Assembly: GCA_910592345.1 (NCBI GenBank)
Contig: CAJVPI010000367.1
Span: 1 to 32,903, forward strand
Direction: 5' to 3'
Origin: Paraglomus brasilianum
Taxonomy: Eukaryota
Length of the DNA stretch: 32,903 bases
Shown here: positions 1,428 to 29,967 of the stretch, piece after piece
How positions within the stretch are numbered: position 1 is the stretch's first letter
Layout of the letters: every line of letters starts with the position of its first letter
Program-made: the position numbers and the translations under genes
Notes under the pieces: model-generated
Databases searched by the model: none
Seen by the model: only the letters and a program-made list of their open reading frames with translations
What the model was told of the DNA's origin: nothing

Positions 1428-2372
1428 GTTGCTTTGTGCACAAATGCTGATGGATCTCACAAGTTAAATCCATTAATTATTGGGAAATTTGCAAAGCTGT
1501 GATGCTTTAATAATGTCAATCTCAGCTATTTACCAATGACATATCGCAACAACTCAAAGGCATGGATGTTAACTACATTGTTTCAAAATTGGCTCCAAGA
1601 ATTCGACAAAGAAATTGCTCAAAAATATGGAAACCAGCATGTATTGCTGTTATTTGACAATTGCCTAAGTCACAAAACGGATGGTATGGTCATCTCAAAT
1701 ACTGATGTCCACTTTCTCCCTCCAAACACCACTTCAAAAATTATGCCGGAATTATTATGTCATTCAAAGGGCATTATCGTAACTTGCATATTCGATGGAT
1801 CTTAACCCAAGTTGAAGAAGGAAACGACATAAAAGTTTAAAAATGGATGTATTGCAAACAATACGTTTTATTATTAGAAGCTGGGATGAAATCACACCAG
1901 AAACAATCCGAAACTGTTGGAATCATACGAAAATTCTTCCAACTACAACTACCACCACTGACTCTGATACAACCAATATGCCAATGCTAGGAGAGCTCTC
2001 TCTGATACTTACATCTCTCAACCTTCCTGATACTGTCAATTGAAAAATTTTTGAGTAACCCAGAAGAAGACTAAGTTTATGTAGTTCCTGACAATGAAGA
2101 ACTATTATATAGAAAACAGTCAGATTTAGCAATAGTGAAGAAGCTGATGACAGCATTGAGTCCAAAATAATTAGTGTTAACAAGGCTTCAAAAAGCTTAG
2201 AAATGCAATGAAACAGACTACGATGGATCAATTTTTTAAATAATAAATAACCAATGGTATTTCCTAATTTCACGTGCAATCAATCAAATTCTTACCCTTC
2301 ATAAATGCACACCCTCCATAAATGCACGCCTTCCTCCATTCCCAAGGGTGTGCATTTATGGAGGGTTCACTG
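1428..2372 (+). mobile_element. 5'-truncated pogo/Tigger-type (Tc1/mariner superfamily, DDE_1) transposon remnant with its right TIR
   Basis: VALCTNADGSHKLNPLIIGK, NSKAWM, LLLFDNCLSH, HFLPPNTTSK and SWDEITPETIRNCWNH motifs with stops and frameshifts; the end ...ggtgtgcatttatggagggttcactg|TA is a CAGT-type TIR plus TA target. Confidence 0.9.
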
Positions 2373-7501: not shown

Positions 7502-10475
7502 ATGCTTCCGATCAGAAAACCGAAAGCTAGAAACTTACGCAAGAAAGTCACCGTTGATAACGAAGACGCTGATCCCATATCTGGTATACCTTTCTTTCTC
7601 AGCGTTATCCCTACTCTGCACCACTTGTACTGATTACTCTCCCATTTAACCAGATCAATCTTTGCCACTGTCAACTCCAACAACCCCAGCGACCCCAGCG
7701 ACCCCAGCGACCCCAGCAACCCCAACAAAGAAAACAAAAAAGTCTAAATCACATGTAAAGTTAAGCTTTGGGATTGAAGAGGTAGGATCTTTGCCTCTTT
7801 GTGAATGGTAGATGTTATGTGGTAGGATACATGTCTCGAACGCAAGGAGCGTTGGGATTTTCTGAGGTAGGAGAGGATGTACTGGCTGTTGTCTTAGACG
7901 AAGGGAGTACCATTAAGTGAGAGAGCATAGTGTTGCGATAGATACTTGATCAAGTCACCTTGTTTGGTTCTTCATTGAGAAAGAGACATAGCCTGCATGT
8001 CCCATCAATAATAGGAGTAAATCAAATTAATATATTCTTATTCGGATACTTGCAGGACGAAGGTAGGGAGGTCTATGTATCAAAGGTCCAAGCAAATAGA
8101 CGAACGCCCGATACAAAGTCACGGAAGTTATATCTGGATGTGTGAGTATTTTACTACTCTATTGTGCCAGACTATATACTATGTCTAAATCGCACTAATT
8201 TATTTGATTTACTTAGGCGCTCCTTACCTAAGAATTTGGAGAGTACTACTGAAGCACCAACATATACAAAGGAAATATTGTTTCAATTAAAAGAAAGCAC
8301 ACCAAATACGCCTCCATCATTTACCGAAGATGCTTTGGTTGCAGAGAAATTTCCTTCAAGTATGGGAACAGGTGTGTTTAATGATTTCTGTACTAAATCG
8401 TCAGTCATTTACATTTCGGCGTTTATGCAGAACATATTTCATACAATTATTCACATTACGTACGGATATTTGTGTTTACGTAGGTCCCATAACAGGTATT
8501 CCTGATCCTGCTACAATTCATGCGGCTAAGAAGAAAAGAGAAATGCTGCGACAACGGGCAGCGGGTGGTGCTCCAGAATACATTTCATTATCAGATGAGA
8601 CGGACGTAGGTTTCATGTTCAACTGCGTAAATGTGATATCGCGTTATATTTATTAATAATCTGATTGTCATTTAACATCTTACAGGTTATATCCAGTTCT
8701 GGGAAAAAGTTAGAGTCAAGGTTGGTACGTGAGGAAGATGAAGCAGATGACGTTGACGCTGGTGGGTGTCTTATTATCTCTGTGCAAGTCATATTCGAGT
8801 GTTTTTATAATAGACTGATAGGATCGTTATTAATTAAAAAGACTTTGAAAAGTACGTGTCTGAGAGGTTGCCACTTGGCAAAAAAGCGATGAAAGAGGAA
8901 GAGCAACAACGAAAGGCAGGAATTGAAGAAGCGGTTCAAGAGTTGTAAGTGGGTCTGAATTGGGTTACATCGATTCATCTGGCTTGACAGTTTTATGTCA
9001 ATCGTTTTATTTATAACATCAATATTTTGATTCCCAATTAGCGAATATCAGGGAGAGGAAGATGAGGAGGTATTACAGTGGGAAATGGAAGCCATTAAAA
9101 AGGGTGGTAATGTCAGCAAGATAAAGACACCCAAGAAGTCCCAAGATACACAATTGTACATTCCTGCTCCGAGTATGTAGCGCATAATTGTTCGTAAAAT
9201 CTTTTTTAATACAATATACGACCATACTTACCTGAACATGTTCAACGACTTCAGTACCAGCAATCACACCAATACCGAATATAGCCGATTCCATTGCACG
9301 TCTATCCCAACAGATGGACGATTTCCAAGATGTTCACAAAAATCAACAGTCTGAACTGATACAAATACAAAAGGATTTACAAAACTTGAAATCCTCCAGG
9401 GAAGAATTAGCTAGCCAAATAGAAACAGCAAAAAGAAGCTACAATTATTACCAAGAAATGAAGACATTTGTTGAAAATCTGGCAGAGTTCCTAGACGTTA
9501 AGGTGAGTTTTATTACCAAAGAACGAGTCTAAGTACTAGGCACACCTGTGATGCTAATATTTTCTTTCTTTGGAATGTAATAGCTCCCTTATTTGGAGGA
9601 ACTGGAAAATAAGTTTCACAATTTGTTGATGGATAGATTACAAAGTTTGGCTAAAATACAGACAGATGGCGAGTCTTTTGACTCCGCAATGGAATGTAAA
9701 GGATCCAGTATGTTATACTATGGCATGAATGTCGCAGCGTACAAACAACAGGGGGTAGACATATTGAATGCTATCAATTAATCATTACACTGTTTCTATT
9801 TGTTCTCGGAATCCCTTATGCAAAGCATTTCAGACCAATGATATCTTGCAAAAATTCAAGCACGTAGTTGGTAAGTATGTGCGCTGTGTGAATGATGTGA
9901 ATGCAGATGAGCTTGTGTAATGACGAGATATTCGCCATTGTTCTAACTAGGTGAGATAGAAGTCTCGAAACAGAAGCTGTTTGATGACGTGAGCGATGAT
10001 TTCCGGTCACTTGATAATGTAATGTCCAAGTTCGACGTATGGCGGAGGGAGTTCGAAGAAGACTATGGAAATGCATATGGTGACCTTAGTTTAACGGGAG
10101 TGTTTGAACTTTACGTGAGATATGAATTAATATCGTGGGATCCATTTGACGTACGTATTCGTGGCACATATTTCATATGTTATGAGTAAATGGTGTAATA
10201 CTTATCATGTGCTGTCTATTCATTTGTTTTCCTATCAGCAAACAACTGTTGATCCGATAACTTCTACTAATTGGTATCGGGTTCTTTCTGAATACGGAAC
10301 AACTAATTCTAACAATGCCGACTCAAATGATAGAAAAAGCATTATAATCGGAAAAGTAATAGATAAAATTCTAATTCCAAAAATTAATAGATTAACTGAA
10401 GTATATAAGCCTTATAACCCGGATGTGGCGAACCGCGCTATTGGCCTGACTGACTTGATTAAGTCTATCGTGTAG
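7502..10475 (+). CDS. NTR2: Ntr2 / GCFC2-PAXBP1-like spliceosome-disassembly factor, about 13 exons
   Basis: Manual GT-AG splicing gives MLPIRKPKARNLRKK, KLSFG, IPDPATIHAAKKKREMLRQ, SRLVREEDE, QWEMEAIKKG, YYQEMKTFVENLAEFLDVK and the GCFC core FDDVSDDFRSL..F..WR.....Y..AY.DLSL..VFELYVRYELISWDP; 3' end uncertain. Confidence 0.85.
7676..7726 (+). repeat. Coding 9-bp tandem repeat encoding (T-P-A/T)n in exon 2 of the Ntr2/GCFC gene
   Basis: accccagcg repeats translate as STPTTPATPATPATPATPTKK. Confidence 0.85.
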
Positions 10476-17071: not shown

Positions 17072-17347
17072 ATTTAGTACATGCGAAGCCATTGATCGAA
17101 ATAATCACCCCCACATTCTTTTTTCCCTAGTTTGGTGGTACAGTCAATTTGAGTCGATCGCGTCAGTTTGCATTTTCCCAATAAGTACTCTATGGTCTTG
17201 TTCAGGAAAGCATTTAAATTCGTTTCAACGAAGATACCCCAGTCAGTATTACGAAATTTAGTCACCAATAGTTTCAAGAGCTCGAGGAATCAGAACACCC
17301 AACTTTTATTTACCTGTTATAAAAGACAATTGCATTACACTCTACCC
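17072..17347. promoter_or_regulatory. Probable bidirectional promoter between divergent DPM1 and PCMT1
   Basis: Only 276 bp separate the two predicted start codons (17071 minus, 17348 plus). Confidence 0.55.
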
Positions 17348-18737
17348 ATGGCTTGGTTCTGTTCTGGTACGGAAACCTTGACAAACAAGCAGAAATGCGC
17401 AGTGCTACTTGCTCTCTCCTCATTCTATCTGTCAAATCACTTTCTCCGCCTCTTTCTATAACAGCCAAGGATAACGATGGCCTTATTTCCAACCTCAAGA
17501 GAGCCGGAATAATCGAGTCTGACCGTATCGAAAGGGCAATGAAATCGATTGACCGAGGAAAATACGTCCGCAAGGATCCGTACAGAGACACGCCTCAAAT
17601 ACTGGGGTTTAACGCTACTATATCCGCTCCGTAAATGTTTGATTTCTACTTTTTGCTTTCGTTCGTTTTGCATAGTTTTGATAAATGATGAGTTTTTTTT
17701 GAACAAACTGAATCATACATATCATTGGGAAGACATATGCACGCACATGCCTTGCAGCATTTAGAACCGTTCTTGAAGGAAGGAATGAAAGGTGAGTAGT
17801 TTATATATGGCGTATTTAGATTGTTGTAATTTGGATTATTAACGAAAGTCGCGTGTTTGATCGAAAACTTTTAACTATATAGTGGCACTTGTTTTGATAT
17901 AGTACTAAAATTCATCCTCAACTACTCGCTTTAAATCTAGTTCTCGATGTTGGATCTGGATCAGGGTACTTGACCGCGTGCTTTGCTGAAATGGTAACTA
18001 TTGCTTTTGTATTTTCGTTTGGTAACAATCTTTTTTTCCTTTTTTACTATTGTAATCACTCATAATATCTGATACAAGGTTGGGACGAGTGGCAAAGTAG
18101 TCGGAATAGAGCATATTCCTGAGCTCGTTCAACTTGGTGAACAGAACGTCCGCAATGATAGGCCAGAATTTTTAGATTCTAAGAGACTTAGTTTTGTCTT
18201 GGGTGATGGCAGACAAGGATATCCTGACGAGGCTCCGTACGATTGCATGTACTGTCTCTAACTACATTTCATTGCTTTATTGCATGTGTGTGTGTCGTCT
18301 CGGTGAAGATGGGCGTTATGCTTTCCCAATGTTTACTGAATGTGATACTTCGTTAAGACATGTCGGCGCCGCTGCTCCCACTACACCCAAGGCATTGATC
18401 GATCAATTGAAAGCTCCTGGACGGTATGAGGATCGCGTTATTTGGAGGGAGGGAAGAGAGGAACACTGTTTGATACCCGAGGCACGTATGTAAACTTGTT
18501 TGAAATGATCCACATAGGCTTTTTATCCCTGTCGGAACAGACCATCAAAGTATCCATCAGATCGATAAGGATAAAGACGGCAACATAACAGACAAAGACG
18601 TAATGGGTGTTATGGTAAGGGTTAGGTTCAAGTGTTTTCTTGCTTGGTTGGAGATTTTACAATGATGACTGACCATCTGCACGTATTTTTAGTATGTTCC
18701 ACTTACCGATGCATCTAGCCAACTGCGGACGTTCTGA
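17348..18737 (+). CDS. PCMT1: Protein-L-isoaspartate(D-aspartate) O-methyltransferase, 8 exons
   Basis: MAWFCS, DTPQILGFNATISAPHMHA, VLDVGSGSGYLTACFA, VVGIEHIPEL, GDGRQGYPDEAPYDCIHVGAAA, LIDQLKAPGRLFIPVG, GVMYVPLTD. Confidence 0.96.
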
Positions 18738-23071: not shown

Positions 23072-26000
23072 CTAAAAATCCGGAAGGCTAAGATCAAGTT
23101 GTTTTGAATCTGTTTCAAAATAAATGATAATTTTAATTTTAGCGAGTTAGTAATAAAACCGAGCACAAAATACATACCATAAGTCATATCTACATCTGGA
23201 ACCTCAAGATTGACTTGATTAGAGTCTACGCAACAGATATTGTAAAGGTGTCAGGTTAATAATCGAATTATGTTGCCGACAGTACTAAATTTAAAATAGA
23301 GAGAGAAGTTTACCATACCGTGAACACTTGTAGGTGTTGGGAAATTGTCAAAGTCAAATATTCTACTGGTATAAACAGCTCCAGAATGCGCTGGTTTCTC
23401 TGCGAAATTGGCGCGATTTATCTTTAGTGCAACCCGAGCTCTCTCAAGAGATGGAATGTATTCTTGATCGCGATCTTCATTCCATTTGCTGATAGTACTA
23501 AAAAGTTTGTAAGCGGATGGACGCTTGTCCGGGTCGGCGTCGACGCATTCTTTGTACACGCCAGCATAGAAATCCGGTGTCCAAGGGCTCATTTCCGGTC
23601 TAGCACCTTGGCAAATGTTTCGGGCCAGAGTTATGTTGTGAGCACTGTTCTTGAAAGGGACGTCGATCATTTCAAGCATCCACATTAAGAGACCAAACGC
23701 ATAAATATCTGATTTCTGAAAAAAATAATATAAAATTTAATTTAAAAAAAGGTATAATAAATCGTACGACATAATCCCTGTCGTATTTACTATGCAAATA
23801 TGAACCTAATTGATTGTACTTTTTGAAATACATTATTACAACAACGCGATAGAATGCTATGCGTATGTAATTATATACTGTGACTTCCGTTTTATAGAAA
23901 TACTGCCCTTTCACACACCCGTCATTATATTTGACAAGTACAATCAATTAGCTTCAAAACGATTGCTTACTTGCATAGTAAATACGGATGATAACGACTT
24001 TCGAAATAAAGATTTTTTCCGGCAGGGGAGTGTATATAAAGAATTGTTTTAATATACCTGCGAATATGGCATACCGCGAAGAACCTCTGGGGCAACATAT
24101 GGCATCACACCAAATACTCCCTTATGTTTCTCTGCATCATTTTCGTGAATCGAAAGCCCGTAATCGGTGAGATCTGCATTGTTTTCTCTACTCTCAATAA
24201 GGACATTTCCTCCATGGATATCCCGGTGAATCATTCCCGTTTCGTGGAAATCATACAAACTCTCGACTAGTTGCAAGAGAATCTGCATTTTGCGAGTCCA
24301 TGAAAGGTCTGGATTTTTGCGCAAGTAGGTTGTCAAATCACCGAGATCGGCATAGTCCATAACCAGAACGTGCTTTCCCGTGCTTTTCAAGCGTGATACA
24401 CCCAAAACATGCATCTTTTGCAACCTCAACTTCTGCAGTTCTGAAACCATCGCAGCGCCTACTGTCAACTGTAAGAAAAAAATAATTGAGGATTGTTTCA
24501 TTAACCTGGAATACCGAGATTAAAATTACCTCTTGTAAAAAATCCTGCTCACTATCCTTGATATCAAAAAGAAGTTTGACTGCGACTTTGAGAGGCTCTC
24601 TTCGCACGACACGTTTACCACTGTCATCAAAATCTACGCCCAAATATTTTCCATTTCTCCAGACACCAGAATATACCATCCCGAATCCTCCTTTTCCAAT
24701 CTCGACTAGATCGTCAAGATCGTTTGGTGGAATCCATTGAAGGCAGATATAGTCGTGCCCATCCGCGTCTTTCTGGGTACTTTGGATAACTTGGTCATAC
24801 TTGTCGTTTCCAGTTGTCCAACCTTCCATTAGCTGCTTTCGATCACACTGATTGCACCAAAAGTCTTTATTTGGGTAAGTTGATCCGCAAGTAGAACAGA
24901 AACCATGTGACACGAACGCGTATGCGCCAGTGGATTCAATTCGCGATATCCCATAGAGCGTCAGTTCCTCTAGTGTTCTATAATCCATTTGACAGACGTA
25001 TAACGCTCCTTCCTGCAGCTATTTATCGACAAATGGAAAACATCAATACCTAACAAGAAAACATATAAACTGCGTTCTTTACCAATGTTTAATTACCTCG
25101 CGCAAAAAGTCATCTTCAGATCGATCACTCTTAGCAAGAACTTTGAGAAAAACTTTTGTAGGTTCCCAAATCTCCCGACTTTCACCAGATTCATCATTAC
25201 AAAATCCCTTAAACGATCCATCAAGCCAAGTGGCATAATACAAGGTTCCGAACTCTCTACTGATAATTTCGTTCACATTCTGAATGCGATCGGGGGCAAT
25301 CCATTTGAGACAAGGAAACGGGGTCTTTTCATCCACGTCTTTTTGCGTCTCTTTAAGCAATTCATCATACTTTTCATGCCCACTTGTCCACCCTTCCATT
25401 AATGCTTTTCTCTTACATTCTCTGCACCAGTTCTCATCGCTCAAAAACCAACCACAAGTGTTGCAAACTCCCCCTGACACTATTCCCAATTTATTGGTTT
25501 CAGGTTGTCGTGTAATACCAAAAATACGAAAGATGGTATTACCATATATTCCGGCCCAATCCTTTAGCTAAAAAAAAAATTGAAGTCATAAATAGTGACA
25601 TTGAATTTTCTGCATCTTAATATCTTCGTCTTACCTCTCCGATGCAAGCAACTTCATCTTCAACGATTTTAACCGTGATATTCTGTGGTGTCCACTGAAG
25701 AACGATTCGCTGATTTTCATCAAATTTCCAGTCTTTATATTGCCACTCCAACCATTCCCCAGTATATAGCGTACCAAACGTACGCGTTTCCGTCTCTACC
25801 AAGCTTGCAAGACTATCCCAAGGAATCCATTTGAGACACGCGGTCCTGAAGTCATCAACATCGTTTTGTGATTCTCGGATGATGGCGTTGATTTCCTCAT
25901 TACCGCTGGTCCAACTGAACATTAACCGCTTCGGATCGCATTCTTTACACCATACGTCCTTGGAATCGCCACTGGCACCGTAAAAAATGCCACCACAATT

Positions 26001-28393
26001 TAAACACGCTCCAGAAACTATTAGTGCATACTCTCCGCTTGAATCTGACTTGGAAACGCCCCAAGGTTTCAATTTTGGTTGCCAGTTTGGTAACTTCATT
26101 TGAATACCCCATTCGCTTGTTTTGATAGCTGCAGCAGCACATTCTTTAAGCTAATTAAAAGTCATTTATTATATGTCTACAATATTTAACATGCGCATGA
26201 GATTAAAATACCTCTTTCAAAAATGTCGCTTCATTATTTGCAAAAACTTTTATTATTACACGACAGGTAACCCAGTTGTGGATGATGTAAGAACCGTCGG
26301 TATCTTCACCATTATCGATAGTAAATTTGTATCGGCCATCAACAAAATCGGCTGCGAAAATGCTACCGAAAGAACCTTTTGAGATTTCCATCATGTTCTG
26401 AAGTCGTTTCCAGGGGATCCATCGAAGGCAATGGTATCCATGCCAGTTTTTGTGACGTCCTTTTTCTTGGGACTCCCGTATGACCTTATCGTAGTCGGCA
26501 TTTCCGCTTGTCCAACCCTCTGTCAATTGTTTCCAGTCACAAGTTTTGCACCAAGCATTGTCGTCTGGGTAAAAGACACCACAGGTAGGGCAAGCACGAC
26601 GAGTTATAAGGGCTAATTCTCCCGTAAGTCGTGATACGCCAAAAATCCTTATTTTCGTGACCTGAGGTTTCCGCATACTTTGCGCAAGCTTACGATCATC
26701 CTTCATCCACTTTTCTTTAGAAGCATTCACTCTTTTCAAGGAAAACGCTTCCTGAACTTTACGAACGGCTTCCGCACCATCCTTCAACTGTTATTTAACA
26801 AAAAAAAATGAATGAATAAATAAATAAATAAATAAAACAAATATGTAGACAAGATTTAGAGCACAATTGATATATATTACTTCTTGCAAGATGGTCTTAT
26901 CTGCTTCATTTTGATCGGTCGCAATTGGAACCTTAACTGATACTTTCAATGCTTTTCTGTGGTTGACAATTTTATGCTCGTTATCGAATTCAGTTTTGAA
27001 CCGGACCCAGTCAGCTGTATAGAGCTTGCCAAACTCGCCAGTGCTAATTTCGACAAGATTTTCAAGATGTGCAGGCGATATCCATTGAAGACTTGGGTAA
27101 TAATACGCTGAGTTGTCTTTTCTCTGGGTTTCCTCGATAAGTTTATCGTATTCAGCATTGCCACTAGTCCAACCGTTATAAAGTCCATTGCGTTCGCACT
27201 CATCACACCACTCTGCCGTTTCAGGAAGAGCCTGGCCACATTTAGCGCAAAAATTGCTTGCTACCAATGCCAAAGTTCCCGTAGATTCGACGAGTGTCAT
27301 ACCGTATATAGGCAACCGCAAAGGATTCATAAATTCCGTGCCAGCTTTCAACTACAATCAGTCCAAAAATGAGCATATTTAAATAACCCGTTTTAACAAA
27401 AAAAGCTTATATTACTATCGATCTGAATTAAACTGTATACCTGCCAAAGAAATGAAGAAGTACTAGCCCGGAGTAAGACTCTGATCGTTTTCCAATGCAG
27501 AATGATATCGCGATTCTCGCCTTCAAAATCCCACCCGTCATATTCTCCCTCCGTCCAATCCGCCGCGTAGATGGTCCCAAATTCACCCTTAGATAATTCT
27601 TTGACATTTTCTAGCCGGTAGGAGGGAATCCACCGCAAACAAGGGAACGAGTAAGAGTCTGCACCTTGCTGTGTTTCTCGGATAATGGTATCATATTCGG
27701 CATTTCCGGTAGTCCAATCTTGGTTTACATTACACTTGTCGCACCATGGACCATGGCGCAAGATGCGAGGGTACAACCCGCCACAGGTTTTGCAAAACTT
27801 TTCGGCCACTAGCGCGAGTCGGCCAGTGGATTCTTGGCAGGATACTCCCAAGAGTCGAATGCGCTTTTTACGGTCATTACTACCCATATAAAACCGATCT
27901 GCATTCAATTCTGCATCACCTGTTTTTAGCTAAGGATGGGAGTGTTGATGTTAATTCTGAGACAAGATTGATCATCATCATGCCACGTCGCAAAATTACT
28001 CACCTCATGAAAGAATTCTTCCTCTGCATTGCTTCCCGAGTTCATGAACTTAACTTCAACCCTTAGAGGCTTCCAATTAATCACTCGCTTCCCACTCGGT
28101 TCGAAATGCACACTTTCAAATTGGCCGTCCTTGAAGCTGGCCTTGTAAACCACGCAGAATTCTCCTTTTATGATTTCAACGAGATTCTCTAAGCGATTCC
28201 ACGGAATCCATCGAAGATAGGAGTCGTCATATTCACGTCCGATTTCGTTGCGTTTTATGATTTTATCATAATCCGCGTTTCCAGTCGTCCATCCCTCCAT
28301 GAGCTGTTTGTAGTCACATCCATTTCTGCACCAACCTTTTTTTGAATATATCTTATCACCGCAGGAGTAACAATTAAATTCCTCGTCATCCAT
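23072..28393 (-). CDS. Tyrosine-kinase-like (AMF WTSGN-type) protein kinase, about 1431 aa, with seven tandem Cys4-finger/N-lobe modules and one C-lobe
   Basis: 11 exons: 28393-28004, 27929-27441, 27351-26881, 26787-26212, 26150-25635, 25567-25097, 25018-24530, 24468-24058, 23715-23319, 23225-23178, 23109-23072 = 4296 nt, open to TAG; GKGGFG, VAVK, FLQE, HRDIHGGN, DYG, YVAPE, SDIYAFG and CVDADPDKRP motifs. Confidence 0.9.
24530..25018 (-). repeat. Kinase module exon 7 (phase 0-0), carrying the canonical N-lobe
   Basis: AG|LQEGAL..LYGIS..STGAYAFV..CSTC..WCNQC..GWTTGN..LQWIP..IGKGGFGMVYSG..VAVK..FLQE|GT; 163 codons. Confidence 0.9.
25097..25567 (-). repeat. Kinase module exon 6 (phase 0-0)
   Basis: AG|LKDWAG..IFGIT..TNKLGIV..CNTC..WCREC..GWTSGH..LKWIA..ISREFGTLYYA..VFLK..FLRE|GT; 157 codons. 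Confidence 0.9.
25635..26150 (-). repeat. Kinase module exon 5 (phase 0-0)
   Basis: AG|LKECAA..PWGVS..SGEYALI..CLNC..WCKEC..SWTSGN..LKWIP..ETRTFGTLYTG..ITVK..CIGE|GT; 172 codons. Confidence 0.9.
26212..26787 (-). repeat. Kinase module exon 4 (phase 0-0)
   Basis: AG|LKDGAE..IFGVS..TGELALI..CPTC..WCKTC..GWTSGN..LRWIP..SKGSFGSIFAA..VIIK..FLKE|GT; 192 codons. Confidence 0.9.
26881..27351 (-). repeat. Kinase module exon 3 (phase 0-0)
   Basis: AG|LKAGTE..IYGMT..STGTLALV..CAKC..WCDEC..GWTSGN..LQWIS..STGEFGKLYTA..VSVK..ILQE|GT; 157 codons. Confidence 0.9.
27441..27929 (-). repeat. Kinase module exon 2 (phase 0-0)
   Basis: AG|LKTGDAE..LLGVS..STGRLALV..CKTC..WCDKC..WTTGN..LRWIP..SKGEFGTIYAA..VLLR..FLWQ|GT; 163 codons. 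Confidence 0.9.
28004..28393 (-). repeat. Kinase module exon 1 (Cys4 + WTTGN + degenerate N-lobe)
   Basis: CYSC..WCRNGC..GWTTGN..LRWIP..IIKGEFCVVYKA..VEVK..FFHE|GT; 130 codons. Confidence 0.9.
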
Positions 28394-29170
28394 TTTGAAG
28401 CGACCGTGTCAGCACATTCATGTGTCTTGGAAACATGGTTTAAATATATGCTGCCAGCTTTAATAATATTCAAGTTACCTGAGTGTTACAAATAAAAGAC
28501 GCAAATCACAAAAGAGAAGCATAATAATAAATGTTCTTCAATTCCCAATTTGGTTACGAACGACAGACAGTGTATGTACAGTATTTATCGTAAGGCCGTC
28601 AAAGTTTACTACTCCAAATGATAAGTGTTATGTAATATTTATTCTAAACTCCTATGCCCATTTCAGGCATGTGGTATACCAGGATGCATGGACCCCATTT
28701 CGCTGAGTAAACCAGCCTACTTTCTTCATATTACTTGCTAGAGACAATATAACTTCTAGTTGAGTTGGGATCTGATAACCCTTCGTGCGTTTAAAGTTAT
28801 CACATTCATACAATATTATATCTAATTACTCGAATTATTTCCCATTATTATTATGGCTACCAGTCCATTATTTTTCTTTATCCAATATGCACGAGTTCTA
28901 ATACAGTATTAAATTACGAAAATCGATGGTTTAAGAAGTATGAGAATAAATAAGCGCGTTTATTAATTGTCTTAATAAGCCGATGCTTATATGGGGACTA
29001 CATATTAGTATCCAGCATGCTTATACGATAACATTGGGATTTGTTTTTAAGCTCTTGCGTGTTCTGTATTTTATAAATTCAGCGGCACGCGCGAACGTAA
29101 AATTCTCTAAATGATCACATGACTTAGATTGCTAAATTTGATTTGTTCTTCTTTCCGTTTCCTCAAAAAA

Positions 29171-29967
29171 ATGGAAGAAACATCCAAACAACGTAAAGCA
29201 CGTTTGGAAGCCTTTCGCAAAAGAAAAGCGGAAACCATAACTAACACCGGTGAAGAAAATGAATCAAATGAGAATAGGTACGTTAGCGTAACAGCTATAA
29301 TTCAAGTACGGATGCCTTCGAACTATGCTTTATTCTGAAGATTTCTTCCCTCACTTTTCTCTCTCCACTGATCAACAGTAAAACACTCAGTTTTCGTAAT
29401 TATACACCTTTAAATGAAGATGTAAGAGCAAATTCGATAGTCAAAATAACAAAACCAGAAGACATTGGGGACGATACTGTGGAGAAGACTGCCCAGCAAA
29501 TAGTAATGGAAGTTGAAGTTGAAGAGGAAGCTAAGCAGAAGGAGGATGTGGTATGTTGTGAAGTTGGGACGCGGGGCGGGAACAGGTATCATATCGCGGC
29601 GTTGAATGACATATGCACAGATCAACGATAGTTGTCTACTGCATACGTTAACCACTCTTTTGTCGTCTATAGGATCTATTCAATCTTGCTCCAAGAAAAC
29701 CAAACTGGGACCTAAAACGAGATGTTGAGAAAAAGCTACAAAAGCTCGAGCGTAGAACTCAAGCTAGTATTGCTCAGTTAATACGTGAGTTATTTTGTAC
29801 ACTCTCTTACTTGATTTTATTATAGTTATTCCTTTTTCCCACTTCCTAACTCTAATTTATTTATATTAGGAATGCGTCTACAGGGTGAGTCAGAGTCAAC
29901 GACTGATCTAGCTGATGCTGTTAGAGCTACTGAGAAAGGGGCCGAATCTGAAAACGAATCGGATTAG
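29171..29967 (+). CDS. cwf18: Cwf18 / CCDC12 pre-mRNA splicing factor, 4 exons
   Basis: RKARLEAFRKRK, LSFRNYTP, DLFNLAPRKPNWDLKRDVEKKLQKLERRTQ..IAQLIR.RL; GT-AG introns; TAG at 29965-29967. Confidence 0.93.

What the first reader, a model, noticed from the sequence alone, without database searches (positions are those of the whole stretch)
23072..28393. Seven kinase N-lobes on one C-lobe: a tandem half-kinase array in a single intact gene
Seen: nine separate ORF-track entries plus two micro-exons splice through canonical GT-AG introns into one 4296-nt frame. Seven ~130-190 aa modules each carry CxxC-WCxxC, W-T-[ST]-G-[NH], LxWI, a Gly-loop-like strand, a beta3 K/R, an alphaC E/Q and beta4-beta5 (G[VI][ST]...ALV). 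In modules 1-6, beta5 runs into the next Cys4 finger instead of a hinge and C-lobe. Only module 7 continues into MDYA..GDL, HRDIHGGN, DYG and APE. Known: ordinary kinases have one N-lobe per C-lobe, plant tandem kinases repeat whole domains, and AMF have greatly expanded TKL kinases. Inference: orphan N-lobes stabilised by a zinc finger serve as a repeat sensor or scaffold domain. I recall WTSGN-repeat predicted proteins in AMF annotations, so the architecture may be present in databases but unexplained.
Basis: partly seen in the sequence, partly recalled or inferred. Interest (0 to 1): 0.88.

Follow-up and report, generated by a model that had tools for sequence, protein, structure and literature searches.

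The report
Repeated half-kinase array in mycorrhizal fungi
A mycorrhizal-fungus gene places six repeats, each predicted to fold as the front half (N-lobe) of a protein kinase but lacking the ATP-binding signature, ahead of one complete and likely active kinase; the same apparently undescribed repeat occurs in many mycorrhizal fungi and likely serves as a protein-binding platform that steers the kinase.

Summary
Confirmed. Eleven GT-AG exons give an open 4,296-nt frame (1,431 aa): seven Cys4-finger/WTSGN/N-lobe modules, only the last followed by a C-lobe. The repeat unit is one phase-0 exon cut at an αC intron that is ancestral in the family (45 of 45 matches in relatives). Intron 5, inside the array, is spliced in contigs of two runs. 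Diverged collinear copies keep module order; dN/dS is 0.13-0.23 in exons 1-7 against 0.16-0.25 in the kinase exons, though 6 of 9 copies carry lesions. Models of Rhizophagus homologues fold each orphan module as a kinase N-lobe (Z 7-8, rmsd about 2.5 Å). The ATP-site signature is in 34 of 41 kinase-attached and 3 of 364 orphan modules. The gene is not unique: 28 of the top 150 hits have three or more modules on one kinase, across Glomeromycota. No Pfam family or paper found describes the repeat. Closest precedents: wheat RWT4 KDup/PKF (one orphan N-lobe that binds an effector) and KIND (orphan C-lobe). The finger is not orphan-specific. A binding/sensing role is inferred, untested. The scan noted a decayed fungal look-alike elsewhere (e1-9917726).

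The parts
28004..28393 (-). Exon 1: ATG, Cys4 finger, WTTGN helices, beta1-beta3 and first half of alphaC of module 1
   Evidence: RNA-library contig of run X1 matches 28134-28474 with 0 differences; 65-69% aa identical collinear copies L003, L010
27441..27929 (-). Exon 2: repeat exon (end of alphaC, beta4-beta5 of module 1; finger to alphaC of module 2), phase 0-0
   Evidence: own clade 100/99; dN/dS 0.23
26881..27351 (-). Exon 3: repeat exon (module 2 end, module 3 front), phase 0-0
   Evidence: dN/dS 0.17; X5 contig 26898-27082 with 1 difference
26212..26787 (-). Exon 4: repeat exon (module 3 end with a long basic alphaC-beta4 insert, module 4 front), phase 0-0
   Evidence: dN/dS 0.13
25635..26150 (-). 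Exon 5: repeat exon (module 4 end, module 5 front), phase 0-0
   Evidence: dN/dS 0.22
25568..25634 (-). Intron 5 (67 nt, GT..AG), the one array intron seen spliced
   Evidence: joint 25567/25635 in contigs of runs X1 (RNA library, 60 nt on the short side) and X2 (RNA by guess, 109 nt)
25097..25567 (-). Exon 6: repeat exon (module 5 end, module 6 front), phase 0-0
   Evidence: dN/dS 0.13
24530..25018 (-). Exon 7: module 6 end, then finger and front of the catalytic N-lobe (GKGGFG at 24697-24680, VAVK at 24586-24575, alphaC Glu)
   Evidence: PF07714 positions 6-65 at E 4.9e-4, below the curated cut-off; dN/dS 0.15
24058..24468 (-). Exon 8: beta4-beta5, hinge (MDYA 24360-24349), HRDIHGGN (24228-24205), DYG, APE
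   Evidence: PF00069 E 2.5e-19, PF07714 E 5.3e-16
23319..23715 (-). Exon 9: rest of the C-lobe and start of the tail
   Evidence: PF07714 positions 181-256, E 8.5e-8
23178..23225 (-). Exon 10 (48 nt), tail
   Evidence: joint 23225/23319 in one X6 contig with only 22 nt on the short side
23072..23109 (-). Exon 11 (38 nt), tail and TAG stop
   Evidence: predicted from splice signals; junction not seen in reads

Best explanation
This is one intact, conserved gene for a likely cytoplasmic, likely active tyrosine-kinase-like kinase whose N-terminal two thirds is an array of six modules predicted to fold as kinase N-lobes that have lost the ATP-site signature and likely act as a protein-binding platform that targets or switches the terminal kinase. 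Origin (inferred): the family's single-module gene has a phase-0 intron at alphaC; a fusion between tandem gene copies that joined beta5 of one copy to the finger of the next and removed the C-lobe between them would create a symmetric 0-0 exon, which can then be duplicated in frame any number of times. Function (inferred): each orphan lobe keeps its core and presents N-lobe surfaces (beta-sheet, beta2-beta3 hairpin insert, alphaC, alphaC-beta4 loop) that would bind proteins which normally engage kinase N-lobes; because each position keeps its own sequence, each likely has its own partner or its own packing role. Shown: frame, motifs, intron geometry, conservation, loss of ATP motifs. Predicted: fold. 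Inferred: activity, binding, regulation.
For: Frame and motifs; no 19-residue window above hydropathy 1.4. One array intron spliced in two runs. Seven position-specific clades, each 100/99-100; dN/dS 0.13-0.23 in exons 1-7, with the degenerate Gly-loops themselves at 0.17. Second Gly-loop Gly 39/41 in kinase-attached versus 29/353 in orphan modules, VAxK Ala 37/41 versus 68/351, while core residues stay (LxWI Trp 33/34 versus 336/347; beta4 Gly 40/40 versus 323/326). AF2 models of P0055 (pLDDT 85.6, pTM 0.80) and of the C-lobe-less array P0016 (88.6, 0.71); all 50 listed best matches among 48,161 PDB representatives are kinases or kinase-containing entries, matched mainly over the N-lobe, for each of four modules; ACK1 117-211 onto residues 64-167, Z 7.9, rmsd 2.3 Å, 86 residues. 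GT follows the alphaC Glu position in 45 of 45 matches in relatives; tandem single-module genes occur (L035, L038, L043, L061); 140 of 249 beta5-to-finger junctions have a 4-6 residue spacer. Precedents for kinase half-domains as binders: RWT4 KDup/PKF and KIND.
Against: No partner, activity or phenotype is known. No read or contig spans the whole transcript; only 1 of the 7 alphaC introns was seen spliced. The window's own protein was not folded, only Rhizophagus homologues. Z 7-8 is middling on its own. The Atlas model of P0016 has pTM 0.55, so rigid packing of modules is uncertain. 6 of 9 diverged collinear copies carry a stop or frameshift. Module counts across related proteins are not independent observations.
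Confidence: 0.55

Rival explanations
1. Purely structural or autoregulatory role: the array is a rod or spacer that positions, oligomerises or self-inhibits the kinase (for instance an orphan lobe packing on the C-lobe), with no outside ligand.
For: Uniform purifying selection over all sub-regions of the orphan modules, highest dN/dS 0.33 in the alphaC-beta4 loop; pTM 0.71-0.80 suggests defined module-to-module packing.
Against: Module number runs from 1 to 11 among the top 150 hits, which a fixed ruler would not be expected to tolerate; 16 of 56 arrays of four or more modules hold a pair at least 70% identical, i.e. recent expansion; Atlas pTM 0.55.
Confidence: 0.2
2. Cassette system: exons 2-7 are all phase 0-0, so skipping any of them keeps the frame; the gene would give isoforms with different numbers of modules or with hybrid catalytic N-lobes, and the array would be a repertoire rather than one long protein.
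For: Symmetric exons make every skip in-frame.
Against: The only array junction seen joins consecutive exons 5 and 6, in two runs; the other listed joints fall inside exons without GT-AG on the gene's strand; skipping exon 7 would put a lobe without the ATP signature on the C-lobe. Contigs drop rare isoforms, so minor skipping is not excluded.
Confidence: 0.12
3. Tolerated by-product: in-frame exon duplication is easy in this family and the orphan modules are kept only because they must fold so as not to spoil the kinase.
For: The intron geometry makes duplications in-frame; 6 of 9 diverged copies are damaged; AMF kinases are high-copy, often methylated and transposon-adjacent (PMC8647823, passages).
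Against: Precise in-frame loss of a module would be equally easy, yet order and identity of modules are kept in every overlapping copy at dS about 1; dN/dS equals that of the catalytic exons; loss of the ATP motifs is systematic while neighbouring core residues are kept.
Confidence: 0.1
4. Gene-model artefact: seven separate genes or fragments wrongly joined.
For: Searches with exons 7 and 8 did not retrieve a long protein from this gene, while the neighbouring gene's product was retrieved.
Against: Introns of 61-93 nt leave no room for separate genes; AG/GT ends are kept in diverged copies; exon 5-6 joint in reads; 28 of 150 hits have the same architecture.
Confidence: 0.03

Closest known systems
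Wheat tandem kinase RWT4/WTK3, KDup or pseudo-kinase fragment (bioRxiv 10.1101/2024.04.30.591956; 10.1101/2024.08.30.610185; passages read)
   Same: An N-terminal partial duplication of the protein's own kinase, modelled as a short helix plus beta-sheet like the kinase N-terminus, placed before an active kinase; there it binds the fungal effector and is needed for activation.
   Different: One recent copy (about 64% similar to its kinase, dN/dS 0.96) in a two-kinase plant protein paired with an NLR; here six old copies (30-43% identical, dN/dS about 0.2), each with a Cys4/WTSGN extension, one kinase, a fungus, and no NLR seen among the window ORFs scanned. No homology beyond the kinase fold was tested.
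[quoted passage not shown]
   Same: Half of the kinase fold freed as an independent protein-interaction module.
   Different: KIND is the C-lobe, in one or two copies; this is the N-lobe, in up to 11 tandem copies.
Expanded PF07714 tyrosine-kinase-like family of arbuscular mycorrhizal fungi (PMC6123716, PMC8647823, PMC11736945; passages)
   Same: The catalytic domain belongs here; single-module members carry the same finger-WTSGN extension and the same alphaC intron.
   Different: The passages read count kinase genes and say nothing on repeated N-lobes; Pfam sees only the terminal kinase.
Tandem kinase-pseudokinase proteins (JAK JH2-JH1, plant TKPs)
   Same: Non-catalytic kinase-derived domains upstream of an active kinase; JAK entries top the Foldseek lists.
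   Different: They repeat whole two-lobed domains; here no C-lobe follows modules 1-6.

Membership tests
Protein kinase (PF07714/PF00069), terminal domain | Profile match above curated cut-off | tested here: met
   Exon 8: PF00069 70.2 bits (cut-off 31.7), PF07714 59.1 (23.1); exon 9: PF07714 32.3
Protein kinase (PF07714/PF00069), terminal domain | Catalytic motifs: Gly-loop, beta3 Lys, alphaC Glu, HRD..N, DxG, APE | tested here: met
   GKGGFG, VAVK, FLQE, HRDIHGGN, DYG, APE in order
Protein kinase (PF07714/PF00069), terminal domain | Phosphotransfer activity | not testable with these tools
   needs an assay
Kinase N-lobe fold (modules 1-6) | Five-stranded sheet plus alphaC superposing on solved N-lobes | tested here: met
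   Tested on homologues P0016 and P0055, not on the window's own protein: Z 7.2-8.2, rmsd mostly 2.2-3.1 Å, 78-92 residues, mostly ending at the hinge; window modules score 90-128 bits to the same profile
Pseudokinase / tandem kinase protein (whole domains repeated) | Each repeat has both lobes | tested here: not met
   One C-lobe match only, residues 1171-1370; beta5 runs into the next finger
RWT4 KDup/PKF-type integrated decoy | Partial duplication of the protein's own N-lobe upstream of the kinase | tested here: met
RWT4 KDup/PKF-type integrated decoy | Raised dN/dS in the duplicated piece | tested here: not met
   0.11-0.33 by sub-region against 0.964 reported for PKF; pairwise averages at dS about 1 would hide a few selected sites
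RWT4 KDup/PKF-type integrated decoy | Direct binding of a foreign effector | not testable with these tools
   no candidate ligand known
KIND domain | Derived from the C-lobe (helical) | tested here: not met
   modules are N-lobe-like

The most novel reading that the evidence does not exclude
Glomeromycota turned the kinase N-lobe into a repeat domain that works as an array of integrated decoys: each orphan lobe baits a different kinase-targeting protein from endobacteria, mycoparasites or the plant, and capture switches on the terminal kinase, making this family a candidate immune or non-self receptor class and a partial reason for the unexplained kinase expansion in these fungi.
Probability: 0.25. 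Interest if true: 0.92.

Novelty: new variant of a known kind. Interest (0 to 1): 0.76.

Why it matters
The kinase N-lobe is normally treated as an obligate half-domain. Here it is predicted to fold alone and is used as a tandem repeat, up to 11 times per protein, across arbuscular mycorrhizal fungi, with no Pfam model and no description found in the library searched. It gives a concrete handle on the long-noted, unexplained expansion of tyrosine-kinase-like genes in these symbionts: many 'kinase-like' or 'hypothetical' proteins are N-lobe arrays. It also offers a clean case of exon duplication made possible by one ancestral intron, and a fungal parallel to the N-lobe decoy of wheat RWT4.

Tried and rejected
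No whole genome is held for the window, so paralogues in the same assembly were not counted. Word-indexed searches with exon 7 (0 hits among 274 candidates) and exon 8 (7 hits among 537 candidates, none from this gene) did not retrieve the gene's product; weak evidence that it is unannotated. Sequence search of solved structures with the module profile gave nothing under E 0.1. Pfam has no family for the repeat; BCS1_N, NOB1 and Glyco_hydro_11 scores on arrays are summed short hits and were rejected as repeat artefacts. Other joints (25731/25805, 27095/27224, 27105/27187, 27592/27730, 28217/26545) lie inside exons and were taken as paralogue matches. A second laying of reads could not be had, so runs X3, X4 and X7 were not examined. 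The idea that the exon-encoded circular permutant is the folding unit was considered: the structural matches run beta1 to beta5 continuously within one native module (64-167), so the native N-lobe is preferred. C-lobe-less arrays were not taken at face value: 30 of 91 last modules without a C-lobe keep the ATP signature and P0006 shares a cluster with longer, kinase-bearing P0154, so many are split gene models. No complex prediction was run, as no candidate partner exists. Paper searches: WTSGN 4 unrelated hits; 0 hits (six phrasings of repeated or duplicated N-lobe); some searches gave listings with no title or abstract on this repeat. Subscription papers and supplements of AMF genome papers were not seen and could mention it.
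Full report
Observation. Seven modules each hold a Cys4 finger, WT[ST]G[NH], LxWI, a Gly-loop-like strand, beta3, alphaC and beta4-beta5; only module 7 goes on to hinge, HRDIHGGN, DYG and APE. Pfam finds the kinase in exons 8-9, a weak N-lobe match in exon 7 and no kinase match in exons 1-6 at E up to 1. The host is a Glomeromycota fungus: a neighbouring gene's product is 99% identical to a record named Paraglomus brasilianum. The gene lies among housekeeping genes (cwf18 head to head, PCMT, NTR2-like).

Expression. Seven runs held 5-10% of the sampled words; four were laid, all as contigs. Intron 5, between two orphan-module exons, is skipped precisely in X1 (RNA library) and X2 (RNA by guess); intron 9 in X6 with only 22 nt on one side. 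Near-identical pieces also cover parts of exons 1, 3, 4, 7 and 8. Nothing spans the whole transcript, many pieces run on into unlike sequence (paralogues), and three runs were not examined. So one of seven array introns is directly supported.

Conservation. A scan of metagenome contigs gave 69 loci from 129 pattern matches. Nine (L002-L010) are collinear copies at about 70-76% nucleotide identity that keep neighbouring exons in the same order with AG/GT ends; L001 is 98.8% identical and intact over exons 5-8. In a tree of 38 exon sequences each of the seven positions forms its own clade (100/99-100): the array is old and not homogenised. Pooled pairwise Nei-Gojobori dN/dS is 0.20, 0.23, 0.17, 0.13, 0.22, 0.13, 0.15 for exons 1-7 and 0.16, 0.25 for exons 8-9, at dS 0.8-1.4 (one paralogous row and two pieces under 54% identity dropped; comparisons share branches). 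Using only the three copies without visible lesions gives 0.13-0.25. Against the simple reading: 6 of the 9 copies carry a stop or frameshift (L004, L005, L006, L008, L009, L010), in exon 7 as well as in orphan exons. They are 78-97% alike among themselves where they overlap, which suggests several paralogues in a related lineage, many decaying, or assembly errors; the contigs need not be independent samples.

Origin of the repeat. Introns 1-7 are all phase 0 and all follow the alphaC Glu position. In more distant relatives, mostly single-module kinases, 45 of 45 matches that reach this position are followed by GT (44 of the 58 loci examined gave such a match). The repeated exon is thus [end of alphaC, beta4, beta5] fused to [finger ... 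start of alphaC], which is what a fusion between two tandem gene copies would leave (inference; tandem single-module genes are seen in L035, L038, L043, L061). Of 249 beta5-to-finger junctions, 140 have a 4-6 residue spacer and 50 have 9, compatible with one or few origins.

Spread. A profile of exons 1-7 hits 2,274 cluster representatives at E up to 0.001. Of the best 150, 28 have three or more modules and exactly one attached C-lobe, and module number runs up to 11; ranking by score favours long arrays, so these are not family-wide frequencies. Of 30 looked up, 26 carry names, all Glomeromycota: Rhizophagus, Acaulospora, Gigaspora, Scutellospora, Diversispora, Ambispora, Geosiphon. P0005 (R. 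irregularis) has the same seven-to-one count. The Atlas lists unnamed Mucoromycota clusters as nearest and Pfam has no family for the repeat. The window's array is among the most diverged internally (mean 37% against a median of 51%); 16 of 56 other arrays of four or more modules hold a pair at least 70% identical.

What the orphan modules lost. Over 41 kinase-attached and 364 internal orphan modules (91 last modules without a C-lobe set aside), the joint signature Gly-loop G and F plus AxK is in 34 of 41 against 3 of 364. Beta3 Lys (261/350) and alphaC Glu (218/348) are partly kept and core residues fully kept. In the window only module 7 has the signature. The Cys4 finger is complete in 181 of 364 orphan and 23 of 41 attached modules (lower bounds), so it is an ancestral N-terminal extension, not an orphan-specific stabiliser.

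Fold. The spliced protein could not be folded; two Rhizophagus homologues were, each with a 50-sequence alignment. P0055 (two and a half modules plus C-lobe): pLDDT 85.6, pTM 0.80, with the orphan module repeating the secondary structure of the catalytic N-lobe. P0016 (four modules, no C-lobe): pLDDT 88.6, pTM 0.71. For P0016 Foldseek returns nearly only kinases, over about 100-130 columns; VIA-align places residues 64-167 on ACK1 117-211 (Z 7.9, 2.3 Å, 86 residues) and RIPK2 9-101; in the unbiased search of 48,161 chains all 50 listed rows are kinases or kinase-containing entries, covering each of the four modules, best Z 8.0. Z of 7-8 is middling alone, but agrees with the sequence homology.

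Mechanism. Most likely (0.55) the array is a non-catalytic binding platform that targets or switches a likely active kinase in cis. Shown: architecture, conservation, selective loss of ATP motifs. Predicted: fold. Inferred: activity and binding. The decoy form of this idea (0.25) has a precedent in wheat RWT4, where a partial N-terminal kinase duplication binds the effector (passages of two preprints), and fits variable module number and gene turnover, but the window's gene shows no raised dN/dS in any sub-region (0.11-0.33) whereas the wheat piece is reported at 0.96. Rivals: structural spacer or autoregulator (0.2), in-frame cassette splicing (0.12), tolerated by-product (0.1), artefact (0.03).

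Literature. KIND shows that a kinase half can be freed as a binding module (PMC3415841, passages). AMF papers report the kinase expansion without architecture in the passages read (PMC6123716, PMC8647823, PMC11736945); a fungal-immunity review's passages on kinases and mycorrhizae do not mention it (PMC10197012). Searches found no paper on WTSGN or repeated N-lobes; subscription papers and supplements were not seen. The placing of the named genera in orders, and general kinase motif knowledge, are recalled.

Verdict. A real, conserved gene and a good example of an apparently undescribed repeat domain made from the kinase N-lobe that is common in Glomeromycota. New variant of a known kind (kinase-derived non-catalytic modules); interest 0.76.

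Noticed in passing
window 29123-29631 (+): cwf18/CCDC12 splicing-factor exons, head to head with the kinase start about 0.8 kb away (weak PF08315 hits).
   Followed up: no
window 8291-10475 (+) and 17323-18490 (+): NTR2/GCFC-like gene (product P0165) and a PCMT gene: the kinase sits among core genes rather than in an obvious repeat island.
   Followed up: partly
window 1503-1802 (+): DDE_1 transposase fragment, E 6e-16.
   Followed up: no
L025 (match to window 28124-28449): 98.5% identical to the 5' part of exon 1, then diverges: a partial or recombined paralogue of the gene's front end.
   Followed up: partly
window 26690-26787 (start of exon 4): Module 3 has a long Lys/Arg-rich insert in the alphaC-beta4 loop; this loop is the fastest-changing part of the orphan modules (dN/dS 0.33).
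   Followed up: partly
P0008, P0018, P0020, P0022, P0031, P0042: Long arrays in Rhizophagus with no Cys4 motif by pattern count: a finger-less subtype of the repeat.
   Followed up: partly
P0121 (Geosiphon pyriformis): Two complete module-plus-C-lobe kinases in one protein, a true tandem kinase of the same family and a possible intermediate state.
   Followed up: no
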